Positions 10,747 to 21,716 of a stretch of DNA of 52,690 nt are shown here, piece after piece; within the stretch, counting starts at the first letter, position 1, and every line of letters starts with the position of its first letter. The position numbers and the translations under genes are program-made. Origin of the DNA: a virus (taxonomy: Duplodnaviria; Caudoviricetes); the IMG/VR virus record IMGVR_UViG_3300031237_000006, positions 1 through 52,690 of that record, one strand, 5' to 3'. A model generated the notes under the pieces. It was not told the origin of the DNA and searched no databases. It saw nothing but the letters and a program-made list of their open reading frames with translations.

Positions 10747-11642
10747 TCCTGGCTGCCTATATCACCCTCGGCTGCTACTTGATCCGCCGTCTCCCGTGGA
10801 ATGATAGTGAACGGTCCTATCTGGACGTGGACCATATAGAGATGGCACGGCGGTATCGGGAGGAATTCGGAGAGGTCATGCCACGGCGGATGCCATTTCG
10901 GCTTCCGGGGGAATATCTGATCTACGCTTGGGTGCCGAGACACCGGCCGGCACTCGGCCGAGTTGCGGCGCTCATCGTCAGCTCATTCGGCGTCTACCTG
11001 ATGATGGCATATGCGAGCCATCTGGCAGGGCCGAGAGCGGGGCTCATAGCCGGATTGATCGTCCTGTCGAGCCCGACGCTCGTCAGCCTGCTCTGCTCAG
11101 CGAGCTACGTAGCCCCTGTGGCGACCTTGTGGGTCGGGGGCTGGTACGCGCTCGACCTAGGCTGGCCGAGCATTGCACTCGGCTGCGCGGTCCTGCTCGC
11201 CCTGCTCAGGGCCTCGGCGTGGGGGATGAGCCTGGCCCTGCTCGCGTTCTTGCCCTACGGGTATAGTCTGCCTGCTGCCTGGCTGCTCATCGCATATCTC
11301 TGGGGCTGTCAGAGAGAGGTTGTTCTAAGTCAGGGCTGGGCTAGACTGATCCGCCGGGAGCCCTGTCCGGTCTGGGGGATACCCCAGGACGGATGGCACT
11401 ACGGCTTCCGGGTACTCGTGAGGCGTTATGAAGGGCTGATTCCGTGGGTGCTGTTTGCGGTGATTATGGGGGTCTATTCTTCGCAAGGAGCGCGGATATT
11501 AGCTATCACTGCGGTTGTATTCGTAGCCACTCATCTTCCACGGGCGTTGATCCGGCCGAAGTGGACGGTCGGCTATGTACCGGAGTTCCTGCTAGTCGCA
11601 GCAGTCGGAGTAAGCGCCCTACTCGCTCACGCTACTCCCTGA
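10737..11642 (+). CDS. Polytopic membrane protein, possible GT-C glycosyltransferase
   Basis: About 8-9 TM helices; acidic loop after TM1; R.PG.Y loop; GRAGLIAG-like motif; next to the GT-A gene. Confidence 0.55.
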   Translation: MFLILAAYITLGCYLIRRLPWNDSERSYLDVDHIEMARRYREEFGEVMPRRMPFRLPGEYLIYAWVPRHRPALGRVAALIVSSFGVYLMMAYASHLAGPRAGLIAGLIVLSSPTLVSLLCSASYVAPVATLWVGGWYALDLGWPSIALGCAVLLALLRASAWGMSLALLAFLPYGYSLPAAWLLIAYLWGCQREVVLSQGWARLIRREPCPVWGIPQDGWHYGFRVLVRRYEGLIPWVLFAVIMGVYSSQGARILAITAVVFVATHLPRALIRPKWTVGYVPEFLLVAAVGVSALLAHATP

Positions 11643-12020
11643 GTAATACGCCCACACGTTCCCAGGCCAGTTGGCATTCAGGTTCGCCGGGTCATTCTCG
11701 ACACCGACAGGTGCCCAACGCGAGGACATGAACTTGGTGAACGCCTCAGATAGTCTGCCCTGAGCATCGACCGGCCATTCCTTGAACCGGGCGACGTAGC
11801 GGTACTGGTTATTTCTGACACTCAACGCGGCCACACGAGCCTGCGCTTCGTAGGTGTCAGCGGCTTCGCTCAATACCCCGAACTCACGTCCTGGTCTGCC
11901 ATTCTCTGCCAGGCGGATCGCCGCGAGAAACGCGGCGGGGACGCCGATGTCGGCTGCCGTCCGCAGAATGACGGCCTGTTCCTCCTCAGGCAGATTTGCT
12001 GCCTTCCCTGTCAGCTTCAT
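11619..12020 (-). CDS. Putative endolysin (lysozyme-like fold)
   Basis: FLAAIRLAENG catalytic-Glu helix; RWAPVGVENDPANLNANWPGNV motif; last gene of the late operon. Confidence 0.7.
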   Translation of the reverse strand: MKLTGKAANLPEEEQAVILRTAADIGVPAAFLAAIRLAENGRPGREFGVLSEAADTYEAQARVAALSVRNNQYRYVARFKEWPVDAQGRLSEAFTKFMSSRWAPVGVENDPANLNANWPGNVWAYYSGSSVSE

Positions 12021-12028
12021 GATATAGT
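12020..12028 (+). promoter_or_regulatory. Extended -10 promoter (TGaTATAGT) for the tRNA-like RNA
   Basis: Predicted start site near 12035, the 5' end of the acceptor-like stem. Confidence 0.55.
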
Positions 12029-12033
12029 TACCT

Positions 12034-12182
12034 TGCTCGCTGCGGCGTGGTGAGTACACGCGCGCTCTGACCATTAGTCACGGCCGGGGGATTGCTCATG
12101 GCCCTGGTGAGACAACGGGGCGTCGGGTCACCTCCGTGACGCAAGTGTTGCCCGGAGCCGGTTTGAATCCGGCCAGCGAGCA
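12034..12182 (+). ncRNA. tRNA-like structured RNA with enlarged central domain
   Basis: TGCTCGCTG/CAGCGAGCA terminal stem; D-like arm GCGTG-7nt-CACGC; T-like arm GCCGG-TTTGAAT-CCGGC. Confidence 0.65.
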
Positions 12183-12183
12183 C

Positions 12184-12411
12184 TTATTCAAACACACCAG
12201 TAGCATGATCTCGGACGTGCTCGTCTATCTTGGTTTCGATCCGGTTGACGGTCGTCATCATCGCTTCATGGTTGATGTCTATTTTCTGATCGAGATGGGC
12301 CAGATCATTTGTTCGCATCGTCTGGATCATCTTGAAGATGAACAGGAGTGCCCCGCTGAGCAGGGTGACGATTGCGATGTAGTCAGCGACGGATAACGCG
12401 GGCCAGTTCAC
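12184..12411 (-). CDS. Putative holin-like single-TM protein
   Basis: One TM helix plus charged coiled-coil tail, upstream of the endolysin. Confidence 0.55.
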   Translation of the reverse strand: MNWPALSVADYIAIVTLLSGALLFIFKMIQTMRTNDLAHLDQKIDINHEAMMTTVNRIETKIDEHVRDHATGVFE

Positions 12412-13844
12412 GGCTTGGCTCCGGGGAACATCAACGGTCCGTATTGCTGGGCCATCGGGCCTACAAGGTCTAGCCCAGCACCAATGCCCTGTGAAGCTCC
12501 AAAGTTCAGCCCAGTTTGCTGACCGGGGCTGATCGCCAAGGGGTTGCCTACGAATCCAGGGCTCCCAAGCTGGAAACGGGCATACGCGGCTCCGGGAAGC
12601 GGAAGCACGCCGGCAAGGGCGGCAGCTTTTCCAGTAGGAGACATTACGTCTTTGCGGCCCATCGTCTCAGGAGAGAGCCGGAGGGCCTTTGCGAGCGACC
12701 AGTAGCCTTCCTCGCCCATCCGGTTCACCCAGTCCTTGCGATTCTTAGCAAGGGCGCCCTGAAGGGCGTCCTGATTGAACGCGGTTCGTGTATGGACCTT
12801 CTTTCCGAAGGCTTTGGGAAGGAGCCCTGACTTCTCTCCGATCAAAGCCATCCCCGCCTCGTAGGCCCCTCTGGAATCATTGAACGTCGTAACAGCCTCT
12901 GGGTGGATCAGGCTCAACTGGCTCTGGAACGCTCTAAGTGACTCCGCATAGAGTTGCTTGGCTTGTGCTCCGGTGATGTTCTCACCGAGAACTTTGTATT
13001 CCTTATGTGGGTGCATCCGCTTGACGGCAGACCCAAAAGCCGTGAGCTGATCTCGCGCTTCCTGCCATTGACCATGTTGTCCAGGTCTATCAGCCCCAAG
13101 CAGCGGGAACTGAATCTTCGTCCCTTGCTGTGCTTTCTGCTCGATCAGACTCCCGATCTTAGCGTCAGCCTGATCCATGAAAGCCCCGAGCTTGGCTTCC
13201 CCGACACTGACAGATCGCCCGGTTTTGGGGTTTTTGACATATCCGTTGACCAGGTTCTCAATGCCTTCAGGCGTCGGAGGTACATCGTTGAACACGCCCT
13301 TGAGCTTAGGATTCTGTTTGAACGCCTGGACCACCTCAGCAGCCCCGATTTTGTCCATCTTGGCTGCTGCCCGATCCATCCCGACCTTGCGGAGAAAGTT
13401 GACCCCAGCGCCGATAGCCTCTCCAGTCAGCCCGGCAGCAGCACCTTGACCAGCGCCCTTAGCTGCCGTCCCGAGACTGAGTTCCCCTTCACCTGCAAGC
13501 GCCCCGGCTGCCCCACCGAGGGCAGCAGCGCCAACCCGAGTTGCTCCACGGGCGATGGGAGAGGCCATTTTTGAGGCGACAGGGCCAGCGCCAAGGGTTG
13601 CGGCAGCAATACCTAATTCCGTCGTATTCTGCGGGACGAGCATCCTGCCAGCTAGTCCGCCCATCGTCTGTCCGAACGCCGATGGCCCACCGAGGACTGT
13701 ACTGACGATCTTAGTCAACGGAGAGGCTACGTAGTCTTCATACGCTTGGCTGACGACAGGCCGACGCGGCTGTACTGTCAGCCCTGCCTGGCCGCTGATC
13801 GCATCCTCAAGTGGCACCAGTCCTGGAGGAAGAGGCTCAGCCAT
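12408..13844 (-). CDS. Putative internal virion/DNA ejection protein
   Basis: Gly/Ala zipper segments; last of three large ORFs after the tail genes (podovirus order). Confidence 0.6.
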   Translation of the reverse strand: MAEPLPPGLVPLEDAISGQAGLTVQPRRPVVSQAYEDYVASPLTKIVSTVLGGPSAFGQTMGGLAGRMLVPQNTTELGIAAATLGAGPVASKMASPIARGATRVGAAALGGAAGALAGEGELSLGTAAKGAGQGAAAGLTGEAIGAGVNFLRKVGMDRAAAKMDKIGAAEVVQAFKQNPKLKGVFNDVPPTPEGIENLVNGYVKNPKTGRSVSVGEAKLGAFMDQADAKIGSLIEQKAQQGTKIQFPLLGADRPGQHGQWQEARDQLTAFGSAVKRMHPHKEYKVLGENITGAQAKQLYAESLRAFQSQLSLIHPEAVTTFNDSRGAYEAGMALIGEKSGLLPKAFGKKVHTRTAFNQDALQGALAKNRKDWVNRMGEEGYWSLAKALRLSPETMGRKDVMSPTGKAAALAGVLPLPGAAYARFQLGSPGFVGNPLAISPGQQTGLNFGASQGIGAGLDLVGPMAQQYGPLMFPGAKP

Positions 13845-20034: not shown

Positions 20035-20248
20035 CTTCCCCGTTTACCTCGAATCCTAGGATGAACATTCGCCCGATGACATGCTTCTGTGAGTCCCAGA
20101 ACTCTTCCTGGGCGTCCATAACGCTTTCAACTTCGGCATGACTCAGCCCGGTCCGTTCGCAGAGATATGGGATCAGGACCGCGCTCAGGCGCTCGACTTC
20201 TCGTTTCAGATCACCGTCATGCACCCCGTCACTCACGTCGTCATTCAC
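20027..20248 (-). CDS. Hypothetical protein
   Basis: Fills the gap between adaptor and nozzle; start uncertain. Confidence 0.45.
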   Translation of the reverse strand: MNDDVSDGVHDGDLKREVERLSAVLIPYLCERTGLSHAEVESVMDAQEEFWDSQKHVIGRMFILGFEVNGEDE

Positions 20249-21281
20249 GGAACGAATTCCAGGCATCCGGGTTGGTCGTAAACCGTGACCCTGAGCCACG
20301 AGCGAAGAAGTACGGCTTGGTCGTCCTGGCCGGAATGATCCTCGGGTAATCTCGTTGTGGGTTCGAGTCTCCAGCTGCCCGCTTCACGCCGTCGGTGTAC
20401 TCGGTGTACGCTTCCTGTGACCGCTGGTCGTCTTTCTGGTCTCGATACCAGATAAAGCTGGCGTAACTGAGCAGGATATGCCGGTATCTGACTGGGATGA
20501 TCGGCTCATCAGCATCAGCGCTCATCTCGGTCTGCCCTACGCCAGCACTAGACACGGCTAGGTTCCGAGTCATGTACCGATACGGGATCGAGTACGCTTG
20601 GTCCGGGTGAGGGTAGAAGACGACCCTCGGGCGCCAGTCAGCGCTCCCTGACGGCCCGAGTTCTATCAACGTGCAACACTGCGGCGCATCGGCACGGATC
20701 GCATTTCTCGGGATCTTCCGGTAGAACTCGGCTGCGCCGAGAACCGGGATGTGCATTACGTCGCTGAACTGCCGAATATCGACAAGCCGGAAGAAGTCAG
20801 ACGCGAGCGCGTATTCGTCTTCGTAGTACCGATAACTGCCGTAAGCCAGGGCATAGGTCGAGGCGACATCAATGTCCTGGGTATACCGGGAACTGAGAGT
20901 TATTGACGTATCTGACCCGACCGACGAGACGGTGTAGACCTCTCCGCCGGTCGAGATATAGACCTTCCCGCCAGCGTTCGCGTTATTGAATCCCATCCCG
21001 CTGACAGCAGTATTCCAGAGCGTATTACTGCCTTCGAGCGTAGTCCGGCTCGTTGAGGCGATAGAGACAGAGCCGGTCGTATAGGGCGGCCGGGTGATCA
21101 ACGTCGCCGTCCGCTCTGCCCACGGCCAGTTCTGCTGGATATGGATGTCGTGGAGTGCGATGTTCAGGTAGCGCTTTGCAATTTGCTCTGATGCCCCGCT
21201 CGCGGTACTATCTGCTCGCATCCGGACGAGCAAATCACCAAATAATTCAGCAAATGTAGTAGGTTGACCAGTGGTAGCCAT
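20241..21281 (-). CDS. Head-tail adaptor (tail tubular A-like) with inserted beta domain
   Basis: TFAEL, YLN.A..DI....WPW, YALASDF, YP.PD..YSI, D.PIIP..Y.HIL. Confidence 0.8.
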   Translation of the reverse strand: MATTGQPTTFAELFGDLLVRMRADSTASGASEQIAKRYLNIALHDIHIQQNWPWAERTATLITRPPYTTGSVSIASTSRTTLEGSNTLWNTAVSGMGFNNANAGGKVYISTGGEVYTVSSVGSDTSITLSSRYTQDIDVASTYALAYGSYRYYEDEYALASDFFRLVDIRQFSDVMHIPVLGAAEFYRKIPRNAIRADAPQCCTLIELGPSGSADWRPRVVFYPHPDQAYSIPYRYMTRNLAVSSAGVGQTEMSADADEPIIPVRYRHILLSYASFIWYRDQKDDQRSQEAYTEYTDGVKRAAGDSNPQRDYPRIIPARTTKPYFFARGSGSRFTTNPDAWNSFRE

Positions 21282-21296
21282 GGTATATTACTTGAT

Positions 21297-21716
21297 ATGA
21301 AGAGAATGGCCTGGCATGATGCCAAGTGGCTCGCTGGAGTGCTTGATTGCGAGGGTTGGATTGGAATGGTCCGTGTCTCGCACGCCAATAACCCCAAGTG
21401 GTCTACCTATTACTGCGGAGTCACAGTAGGCAACACAAATAGACGCCTTATCACTCGGCTCATACGAATGACTGGTGTGGGCGTATATAGTCGTTTCGAC
21501 ACCAAGGATGGCGTGAGAAAAGTTCGCCATGCTTGGGATGTTAGACGCCGTCAGGAGGTTCGGGATATCCTGACGGCAGTTCGTCCGTATCTTCTGTTGA
21601 AGCGACAACAGGCTAATCTTATTTTGTCCCTTCCCTCTGGTTTCAAGCATGTGCCTGCGCTCCGAAAGAAGGTCCATGAGCAATTACGCCTTCTGAACAA
21701 GAAGGGGATTGCTTAG
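21297..21716 (+). mobile_element. Free-standing single-motif LAGLIDADG homing endonuclease, antisense to the late operon
   Basis: WLAGVLDCEGWI, V.NT, IL..VRPYL..KRQQA. Confidence 0.88.

What the first reader, a model, noticed from the sequence alone, without database searches (positions are those of the whole stretch)
12020..12182. tRNA-like ncRNA with its own promoter, antisense between holin and endolysin
Seen: the 163-nt gap in the lysis cassette folds on the + strand. It has a perfect 9-bp terminal stem (12034-12042 with 12174-12182), a 2-nt linker, a D-like arm GCGTG-GTGAGTA-CACGC (12045-12061) and a T-like arm GCCGG-TTTGAAT-CCGGC (12157-12173) stacked directly on the terminal stem, as in tRNA. 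The anticodon/variable region is replaced by 95 nt with further hairpins (TGAC-CATTA-GTCA, GCCGGGG/CCCTGGT, GTCAC-CTCC-GTGAC). There is no canonical anticodon loop and no encoded CCA. An extended -10 (TGaTATAGT, 12020-12028) places the start near 12035. Inference: a dedicated tRNA mimic, such as a decoy for anticodon nucleases or other defence/RNA-repair proteins, and/or an antisense regulator of lysis timing, since its promoter overlaps the endolysin start codon.
Basis: partly seen in the sequence, partly recalled or inferred. Interest (0 to 1): 0.8.

Follow-up and report, generated by a model that had tools for sequence, protein, structure and literature searches.

The report
Anticodon-less tRNA-shaped phage RNA gene
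The gap holds an intact gene for a tRNA-shaped RNA that has no codon-reading arm; it belongs to a widespread, uncatalogued phage RNA family, resembling the old "stable RNAs" of phage T5, whose job is still unknown.

Summary
Window 12034-12182 (+) has a perfect 9-bp terminal stem, a CG linker, a D-like arm and a T arm stacked on the stem, with 95 nt in place of the anticodon arm.

It is not chance. Scans for its T-arm and D-arm motifs in viral contigs found over 20 phage elements with the same shell. Their acceptor and T stems covary, and their middles run from about 30 to 190 nt.

A covariance model built from 15 of these, without the window, hits the window once. The hit is 12035-12181 (+), 56.8 bits, E 2.5e-10. 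Ordinary tRNAs score 22.6 bits or less.

Several members sit inside phage tRNA clusters. No Rfam family covers them. T5 RNA2, annotated "tRNA-like stable RNA with unknown functions", matches at 28.5 bits.

In two close relatives the flanking genes overlap, so this copy is an insertion, antisense to the late operon. An extended -10 box lies 6 nt upstream.

Most likely the tRNA shell gives processing and stability to a variable cargo. The decoy and lysis-timing ideas are untested. Earlier notes of this scan describe what reads as the same kind on other DNA.

The parts
12020..12028 (+). Extended -10-like box TGATATAGT. It overlaps the start codon (12018-12020) of the minus-strand 133-aa gene and ends 6 nt before the model hit.
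   Evidence: One of 3 TGNTATANT sites in the window, all on the + strand. Function as a promoter is inferred, not shown.
12035..12181 (+). The tRNA-shell RNA gene as matched by model R1. The perfect stem extends one pair further, to 12034-12182.
   Evidence: 56.8 bits, E 2.5e-10, the only hit in the window on either strand, with a model built without this sequence.
12034..12042 (+). 5' strand of the acceptor-like terminal stem (9 bp, all Watson-Crick).
   Evidence: This helix covaries in the family: 9 of 11 pairs have changes on both sides.
12043..12061 (+). CG linker plus D-like arm GCGTG-GTGAGTA-CACGC.
   Evidence: The 17-mer CGGCGTGGTGAGNACAC is shared with 16 family members among 24 matches in viral contigs.
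12062..12156 (+). Cargo: 95 nt with several hairpins in place of the anticodon and variable arms. It resembles no other member's cargo.
12157..12173 (+). T arm GCCGG-TTTGAAT-CCGGC (G53-C61, U54, U55, A58 equivalents present; U in place of C56).
   Evidence: The identical T arm occurs in 8 ordinary phage tRNAs and 6 family members among 33 matching loci.
12174..12182 (+). 3' strand of the acceptor-like stem. No CCA follows.
12021..12186 (.). Insertion relative to relatives in which the two flanking genes overlap by 4 nt.
   Evidence: L003 (788-1015 and 1012-1416) and L005 (945-1151 and 1148-1549) have no gap.
12184..12411 (-). 75-aa protein gene with a hydrophobic N-terminal stretch seen by eye ('holin' unverified), upstream neighbour on the late strand.
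   Evidence: no family match. Homologues in L003, L004 and L005.
11619..12020 (-). 133-aa gene with a lysozyme-like fold, last gene of the minus-strand operon.
   Evidence: 94 homologues; pLDDT 93.7; best matches are goose-type lysozymes, E 0.077-0.25, TMq 0.56-0.62.
12202..12226 (+). Two overlapping weak terminator-like hairpins with T-rich tails, 20-45 nt after the RNA.
   Evidence: 2 found against 1.2 +/- 1.0 in shuffles, so not above chance.

Best explanation
Window 12035-12181 (+) is an intact gene for an anticodon-less tRNA-shaped RNA. It belongs to a phage RNA family that keeps the outer frame of a tRNA: an acceptor-like stem stacked on a T arm, a 2-nt linker and a D arm. In place of the anticodon arm it carries an unrelated, variable 'cargo'.

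Proposed mechanism (inferred).
1. The RNA is transcribed from its own extended -10 promoter, starting at about 12035.
2. The tRNA shell makes it a substrate for the host's tRNA end-processing and protects it from decay, as in the laboratory 'tRNA scaffold' method (recalled).
3. The 95-nt cargo is the working part, with an unknown target.

This copy was inserted, with a replacement ribosome-binding region for the downstream gene, between two late genes that overlap in relatives. It lies antisense to them.

Shown: the structure, family membership, covariation, strand and insertion. Inferred: the promoter, the processing and the role of the cargo.
For: Family found from sequence motifs alone.
- 16 of the 24 viral-contig loci that match the D-arm 17-mer also match model R1 (15 full-length, 1 cut by a locus end). 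14 of them carry, downstream, a T arm followed at once by the complement of the bases just 5' of the motif; L208 needs one mismatch at the junction.
- There are at least 11 different acceptor sequences, all complementary.

Structure counts on 16 sequences.
- 98.3% of cells are paired.
- Acceptor: 9 of 11 pairs have changes on both sides. T stem: 3 of 5. D stem: conserved.
- Sliding the partners gives 31-46% paired.

Model R1, built from 15 members without the window.
- It hits the window once, at 56.8 bits.
- It finds new members: L208, L191 (two copies), L204, a second L210 copy and L186.
- In 328,412 bases of controls the best hit is T4 tRNA-Ser at 22.6 bits.

Shell versus cargo.
- Members run from 83 to 247 nt.
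- Tandem copies share an acceptor but differ in their middles (L191, L210).
- L185 and L216 share a cargo block in different shells.
- L199, L200, L209 and L216 sit in tRNA clusters, and in the first three the element starts 3-4 nt after a tRNA.

Other support.
- T5 RNA2, annotated as a stable tRNA-like RNA, aligns full-length at 28.5 bits, E 7e-5.
- Insertion.
- Promoter parallels.
Against: - There is no expression data for this phage.
- The promoter motif count is at chance level. Only 3 of the 22 elements inspected show an extended -10 within 70 nt upstream.
- Folding energy is not unusual, and the + strand centroid is poorly defined.
- Members for the pair counts were picked partly because their stems pair, so '98% paired' is inflated.
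- No conserved partner gene lies next to the members.
- No target for the cargo was found. Only matches of 11 nt or less occur inside the window.
- Nothing distinguishes 'the cargo is the effector' from 'the shell is the effector and the cargo is filler'.
- The window's cargo has no relative, so its own conservation is untested.
Confidence: 0.6

Rival explanations
1. The shell itself is the effector. It acts as an uncleavable tRNA look-alike that soaks up a tRNA-binding host protein, for example a tRNA-cutting defence nuclease, a processing enzyme or a synthetase. The middle is largely filler.
For: - The shell is the conserved part: 15 invariant columns in the D arm and T loop.
- The middles differ in length and sequence.
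- The T arm is identical to that of ordinary phage tRNAs.
Against: - Anticodon nucleases act on the anticodon loop (textbook knowledge, recalled), and that loop is absent.
- Cargo blocks are conserved between distant shells (L185 and L216) and within the L199 group. That argues the middles are under selection.
- Nothing here tests binding.
Confidence: 0.15
2. In this phage the RNA works chiefly as a cis-antisense regulator. It, or transcription from its promoter, pairs or collides with the late mRNA between the 75-aa and 133-aa genes. That sets the amount or timing of the lysozyme-like protein.
For: - It is fully complementary to the intercistronic stretch of the late mRNA.
- Its -10 box overlaps the start codon of the 133-aa gene.
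- The insertion broke an ancestral 4-nt gene overlap.
- L004 has an unrelated insert at the same junction, with TGATATACT 7 nt before its terminal stem on the antisense strand.
Against: - Other family members lie in tRNA clusters or upstream of unrelated same-strand genes, so antisense action cannot be the family's role.
- The RNA does not cover the ribosome-binding region of the 133-aa gene (12029-12033).
- A tightly folded shell is a poor pairing partner.
Confidence: 0.15
3. A dead remnant: a decayed tRNA gene, or the scar of a mobile element with inverted ends, with no function as RNA.
For: - It is absent from the closest relatives.
- There is a single copy in the window.
- Endonuclease genes lie next to the 133-aa homologue in L003 and L005.
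- Runs holding this phage showed no sequence differences over the stretches they cover, so selection cannot be read from them.
Against: - All 19 shell pairs are intact, and the element carries the residue found in all 15 other members at each of the 15 invariant columns.
- Its score equals that of other members not used in training: 56.8 against 57.1, 53.4, 48.2 and 42.4 bits.
- Decay would not preserve covarying stems across more than 20 phages.
Confidence: 0.07
4. The gap is used on the sense strand. Either it is a 51-codon ORF (12028-12183, -) that follows the 75-aa gene in frame after TAA, or it is a structured mRNA spacer.
For: - The ORF fills the gap exactly and is in frame with the upstream gene.
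- The sense strand folds slightly better, z -2.02.
Against: - The ORF is absent from L003 and L005, and no counterpart exists in L004.
- There is no ribosome-binding site before its GTG.
- The family model matches the + strand only.
Confidence: 0.03

Closest known systems
Phage T5 RNA2 (NC_005859 32959-33083; annotated 'tRNA-like stable RNA with unknown functions')
   Same: The architecture is the same: an 8-bp terminal stem, a CG linker, a 5-bp D-like arm, a non-tRNA middle, and a T arm stacked on the stem. It aligns over all 118 positions of R1 at 28.5 bits, E 7e-5. Its function is unknown.
   Different: - The D-arm sequence differs (no GUGAG loop) and the score is far below the window's 56.8 bits.
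- It lies in a tRNA cluster on the same strand as its neighbours, not as a solo antisense insert.
- I saw the annotation only and found no paper on it in searches.
Phage T4 species 1 RNA (rnaC; NC_000866 70908-71046)
   Same: A small stable RNA of a phage tRNA cluster, with a canonical T arm next to its 3' end and no anticodon arm. Its function is unknown (recalled).
   Different: R1 gives only 17.5 bits, E 0.37. The terminal stem is imperfect and there is no matching D arm. It is an analogue, not a shown relative.
Canonical tRNA (Rfam RF00005) and tRNA-Sec (RF01852)
   Same: The acceptor/T-arm stack, the G53-C61, U54, U55 and A58 equivalents, the 2-nt linker and the D hairpin. The T arm is identical to that of real phage tRNA-Met, Cys, Arg, Gln and Gly genes. 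The 8-9 bp stem and long middle make tRNA-Sec its best Rfam match.
   Different: There is no anticodon arm, C instead of U8, and no CCA. Default ARAGORN makes no call. tRNA-Sec scores 21.5 bits against a gathering score of 47.
tmRNA and bacterial Y RNA-like YrlA (tRNA-mimicking RNAs)
   Same: They use tRNA-like modules joined to non-tRNA parts.
   Different: - There is no Rfam match to either at E<=10 and no ARAGORN tmRNA call.
- YrlA has its ends at the opposite side of the tRNA-like module and travels with a Ro/Rsr gene (recalled). I saw no such gene among the 30 window proteins scanned.
Laboratory 'tRNA scaffold' for expressing recombinant RNA (recalled; a related paper, PMC3753655, seen only as a search listing)
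   Same: The anticodon arm of a tRNA is replaced by an RNA of interest, so that the cell processes and stabilises it.
   Different: It is man-made. That phages use the same trick is my inference.

Membership tests
   56.8 bits, E 2.5e-10, the single hit in the window. Controls score 22.6 bits or less in 328,412 bases (only L002-L100 and L218 were given, L101-L162 were not).
   Exact match to the 17-mer used.
   ARAGORN with introns calls only 3 of 13 members, each with a different 'anticodon' and an odd intron place.
T5-type tRNA-like stable RNAs | Accumulates as a stable small RNA during infection | not testable with these tools
   No run on record as RNA holds the stretch.
T5-type tRNA-like stable RNAs | Same shell architecture as T5 RNA2 | tested here: met
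   R1 aligns T5 RNA2 end to end at 28.5 bits.
Canonical tRNA (RF00005) | Anticodon stem of 5 bp with a 7-nt loop and U33; detected by tRNA finders | tested here: not met
tRNA-Sec (RF01852) | Reaches the gathering score; UCA anticodon | tested here: not met
   21.5 bits against 47. No U-UCA in any loop.
tmRNA | tRNA-like domain plus a tag reading frame; found by ARAGORN or Rfam | tested here: not met
YrlA / bacterial Y RNA | Rfam match; neighbouring Ro/Rsr gene | tested here: not met
   No match at E<=10. No Ro-like Pfam match among the 30 window proteins scanned; the small ORFs were not scanned.
Miniature inverted-repeat transposable element | Several copies per genome, terminal inverted repeats, target-site duplication | tested here: inconclusive
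   Inverted ends are present, but there is a single copy in the window, at most a 2-nt CT repeat at the flanks, and the host genome is unknown.

The most novel reading that the evidence does not exclude
Phages use the tRNA frame as a natural chassis that lets them express, process and stabilise interchangeable effector RNAs. These small genes move between phages as self-contained cassettes with their own promoter. The window's copy would carry a cargo aimed at a host or rival target, for example a defence system. By landing antisense in the lysis module, it would also gate expression of the lysozyme-like gene.
Probability: 0.25. Interest if true: 0.8.

Novelty: new member of a known kind. Interest (0 to 1): 0.55.

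Why it matters
Stable tRNA-like RNAs of phages T4 and T5 have, to my recollection, been on record for decades without a known function. This window shows that one sharply defined type is widespread in uncultured phages from many samples. It has a conserved D arm, a T arm, a covarying acceptor stem and a swappable middle. It also occurs outside tRNA clusters as a solo gene with its own promoter, and it can be gained by insertion.

With it the family could be catalogued, its cargos clustered and matched to host or defence sequences, and T5 RNA2 used as a tractable test case.

tRNA finders and Rfam miss these genes, so phage annotations leave them as empty gaps or call false small ORFs over them.

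Tried and rejected
1. Intron-bearing tRNA. ARAGORN -i calls 'tRNA-Gly(GCC)' with a 64-nt intron inside the anticodon and a weak anticodon stem. Other members get no call or different 'anticodons'. Rejected.

2. tRNA-Sec or suppressor tRNA, a lead from a note on a selenoprotein candidate elsewhere in the window. There is no UCA, UUA or CUA in a 7-nt loop, and Rfam is far below threshold. Rejected.

3. attP carrying a tRNA 3' end. No integrase-like match among the 30 window proteins scanned, and both acceptor strands are present. Rejected.

4. Element conserved next to the 133-aa gene. It is absent from L002-L005 and L016. No blastn or nhmmer match in 81 loci.

5. Cultured-phage matches. blastn of the region and of L199's element found nothing meaningful. 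tblastn of the 133-aa protein found nothing.

6. An exact 27-mer of the T arm plus acceptor had 0 matches in viral contigs.

7. Relatives of the 75-aa and 518-aa proteins in viral contigs: none.

8. C/U-rich, anti-Shine-Dalgarno-like loops in the cargos: 0 loops against 0.49 expected. Rejected.

9. A conserved partner gene downstream of members: the downstream products look unrelated by eye and were not compared formally.

10. R1 in five metagenome-assembled genomes that hold distant homologues of the 133-aa gene: 0 of 5 matched. This is uninformative.

11. Sequencing runs: no RNA holder listed. The four runs laid gave only contigs with no sequence differences across 11592-12627, at low depth. 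The differing X6 pieces at 11316-11453 and 11912-11947 lie outside the RNA. There were no joints across the element and no variants in it.

12. Profile search of the 133-aa family against PDB sequences: 0 matches.

13. L004's insert: no R1 hit and only chance-level Rfam rows.

14. Literature. Searches returned listings and abstracts only. Passages read in PMC9693318, PMC13434031 and PMC4810235 held nothing on this family. No supplements were opened.
Full report
THE WINDOW

The window is a complete 52,690-bp virus record. It codes for a primase-helicase, an SU10-type portal and a capsid protein.

Genes from about 11.6 to 44 kb lie on the minus strand. The finding sits near the 3' end of that arm, between two genes:
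- a 75-aa gene (12184-12411, -) with a hydrophobic N-terminal stretch seen by eye;
- a 133-aa gene (11619-12020, -).

Neither protein matches Pfam or PHROGs. The 133-aa protein has 94 homologues. It models with pLDDT 93.7, and its best structural matches are goose-type lysozymes, at weak E 0.077-0.25 with TMq 0.56-0.62. 'Lysis cassette' is therefore plausible but unproven.

THE OBSERVATION

- a perfect 9-bp terminal stem;
- a CG linker;
- a 5-bp D-like arm with a 7-nt loop;
- a 5-bp T arm with loop TTTGAAT, abutting the 3' strand of the stem;
- 95 nt of other hairpins in between;
- no anticodon loop and no CCA;
- TGATATAGT at 12020-12028.

Standard tools do not recognise it.
- ARAGORN finds no tRNA.
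- Rfam gives only tRNA-Sec at 21.5 bits, against a gathering score of 47. That match is not listed in a whole-window scan, where a chance miRNA hit scores 36.5 bits.
- The folding energy is ordinary: z -1.65 on + and -2.02 on -.

The tRNA-specific geometry, however, is rare.
- My strict test asked for a perfect T arm with a T-loop-like loop, stacked on a perfect stem of at least 7 bp. It hit only this element and two real tRNAs in 721,602 bases of real sequence, and nothing in 15.8 Mb of shuffles. I designed the test after seeing the element.
- Calls of that kind arose 3 times in 300 shuffled windows. They arose twice, with poor stems, in 668,912 bases of other real loci.

RELATIVES OF THE FLANKING GENES

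- In L003 (78% identity of the 133-aa protein) and L005 (70%), the homologues of the two flanking genes overlap by 4 nt and there is no gap.
- In L002 the 134-aa gene follows a long ORF that looked like a terminase to me by eye; I ran no family search on it.
- L004 has a different 111-nt insert at the same junction. It has a 12-15 bp terminal stem and TGATATACT 7 nt before that stem on the antisense strand. It is not a member of the family described below.

So window 12021-12186 is an insertion. It brought a new ribosome-binding region (AAGG) for the 133-aa gene.

Endonuclease genes lie next to the 133-aa homologue in two relatives: GIY-YIG in L003 and HNH in L005. That marks the neighbourhood as a hot spot for mobile DNA.

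THE FAMILY

T-arm scan. Scanning viral contigs for the exact 17-nt T arm gave 33 loci.
- Eight are ordinary phage tRNAs (Met, Cys, Arg, Gln, Gly) with this same T arm. The U at position 56 is therefore a normal tRNA variant.
- Four are long elements built like the window's: L180, L185, L188 and L193. Three of them begin with the same linker and D-arm start (CG-GCGTG), followed by GTGAG in L180 and L185 but not in L193. All four have different but complementary terminal stems.

D-arm scan. Scanning for the D-arm 17-mer alone gave 24 loci.
- 12 pass a strict test for a downstream T arm followed at once by the complement of the bases 5' of the motif.
- L198 and L215 pass with G-U pairs allowed. 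L208 has one mismatch at the junction. L217 is cut by its locus end.
- L204 was added by the model.
- The other 8 loci show no such partner and no model hit, and look like chance matches.

Structure counts. In a 16-sequence alignment the shell structure is 98.3% paired.
- 9 of 11 acceptor pairs and 3 of 5 T-stem pairs have changes on both sides.
- The D stem is conserved.
- Sliding the partners drops pairing to 31-46%.
- These sequences were chosen partly because their stems pair, so the percentage is inflated. The unbiased fact is that a motif picked without regard to what follows is accompanied by the right partners in two thirds of its occurrences.

MEMBERSHIP TEST

A covariance model (R1) was built from the 15 other members.
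- It hits the window once: 12035-12181, + strand, 56.8 bits, E 2.5e-10.
- In L163-L217 it recovers its 15 training sequences. It adds L208 (57.1 bits), two tandem copies in L191 (53.4 and 48.2), L204 (42.4), the cut L217 copy, a second copy in L210 (29.4) and L186 (26.2).
- No hit listed coincides with any of the 22 Rfam tRNA matches.
- In 328,412 bases of control loci the best hit is T4 tRNA-Ser at 22.6 bits. I gave that search L002-L100 and the T4 region, not L101-L162.

WHAT THE FAMILY LOOKS LIKE

- Members run from 83 to 247 nt. All the length variation lies in the middle.
- None is covered by an Rfam family at gathering score. Their loci hold many tRNAs, and in L199 and L205 a permuted tmRNA.
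- In L199, L200 and L209 the element starts 3-4 nt after a tRNA. In L216 it lies between tRNAs.
- Other members are solo. Nine of 14 inspected have a same-strand ORF starting within 65 nt downstream, but the products look unrelated by eye.
- Tandem copies share an acceptor stem but have different middles (L191, L210).
- L185 and L216 share a cargo block (25 nt at 88% identity) in shells with different acceptors.
- No CCA is encoded in any of the 16 members listed.

COMPARISON WITH KNOWN RNAS

- T5 RNA2, annotated 'tRNA-like stable RNA with unknown functions', aligns over the whole model at 28.5 bits, E 7e-5. It has the same layout: an 8-bp stem, a CG linker, a 5-bp D arm, a middle and a T arm.
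- T4 species 1 RNA has a T arm near its 3' end but scores only 17.5 bits.
- Four literature searches and three papers read in passages gave nothing on this family.
- Earlier notes of this scan describe, on other genomes, what reads as the same kind of anticodon-less tRNA-shaped phage RNA with swappable middles. They pointed me to T4 and T5, and I tested those leads here.

PROMOTER

TGNTATANT occurs three times in the window, all on the + strand. The count itself is at chance level: 1.68 +/- 1.40 expected.
- One site (45593, TGGTATAAT) heads the + strand early arm.
- One site (21281, TGGTATATT) overlaps the start codon of a minus-strand structural gene. It lies 7 nt before the ATG of a + strand, antisense 139-aa ORF.
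- The third is the finding. The same geometry puts the start of transcription at about 12035, the first base of the model hit.
- L188 has TGGTATAAT 7 nt upstream of its element, and L214 has TGCTATACT 25 nt upstream.

This is suggestive, not proof. No run on record as RNA holds the stretch (see Tried and rejected).

MECHANISM

Shown: an intact, strand-specific member of a conserved tRNA-shell RNA family, acquired by insertion.

Inferred, at about even odds:
- the shell recruits tRNA end-processing and confers stability, which would explain the placement inside tRNA operons;
- the middle is the effector, which would explain conserved shells with exchanged middles and a cargo block shared between shells.

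The rivals keep some weight, as listed: the shell acts as a sponge for a tRNA-binding protein, a local antisense effect on the lysozyme-like gene, and a dead remnant. The sense-strand 51-codon ORF is very unlikely.

VERDICT

The core of the interpretation, a dedicated tRNA-like RNA gene, is supported, while its proposed functions are untested. It is a new member of a known but unexplained kind.

Noticed in passing
window 21281-21716 (+): A 139-aa ORF lies antisense to the structural operon. Its own TGGTATATT box overlaps the start codon of the minus-strand gene 20241-21281 and sits 7 nt before the ORF's ATG, which suggests a leaderless message. By eye it carries a LAGLIDADG-like motif (LAGVLDCEG), but it has no Pfam match at E<=0.01.
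   Followed up: partly
L004 953-1063: An unrelated 111-nt insert sits at the same gene junction as the window's RNA. It has a 12-15 bp terminal stem enclosing three hairpins, and TGATATACT 7 nt before the stem on the antisense strand. It is not matched by R1 or Rfam. It may be another small RNA gene.
   Followed up: partly
L003 1413-1718 (-) and L005 1532-1957 (-): A GIY-YIG gene (L003) and an HNH endonuclease gene (L005) lie antisense, directly after the 133-aa homologue. This end of the operon is a hot spot for mobile genes.
   Followed up: partly
L185 332-527 and L216 682-879: Two family members of about 196 nt, from different phages and with different acceptor stems, share a cargo block (25 nt at 88% identity) and further aligned stretches. 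This suggests a cargo type moved between shells.
   Followed up: partly
L191 863-1117 (-) and L210 3658-3921 (-): Pairs of family members lie 19 nt (L191) and 84 nt (L210) apart. Each pair has the same acceptor stem but different D arms, middles or T arms.
   Followed up: no
L180 about 1950-2020: Three to four tandem repeats of the first bases of the element (acceptor 5' strand plus the start of the D arm) lie directly upstream of the intact copy.
   Followed up: no
L199 830-1107 and L205 2712-2990: A permuted tmRNA (RF04321, 80-85 bits) lies about 700 nt downstream of the tRNA-shell RNA in these phages.
   Followed up: no
window 11619-12020 (-): The 133-aa protein belongs to a family of at least 94 proteins with no Pfam, PHROG or PDB sequence match. 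It has a confident model whose best structural matches are goose-type lysozymes. This looks like an uncatalogued lysozyme-like phage family.
   Followed up: partly
window 12028-12183 (-): A 51-codon ORF fills the gap exactly and continues the frame of the 75-aa gene after its TAA. It is probably a by-product of the insert, because it is absent from relatives.
   Followed up: partly
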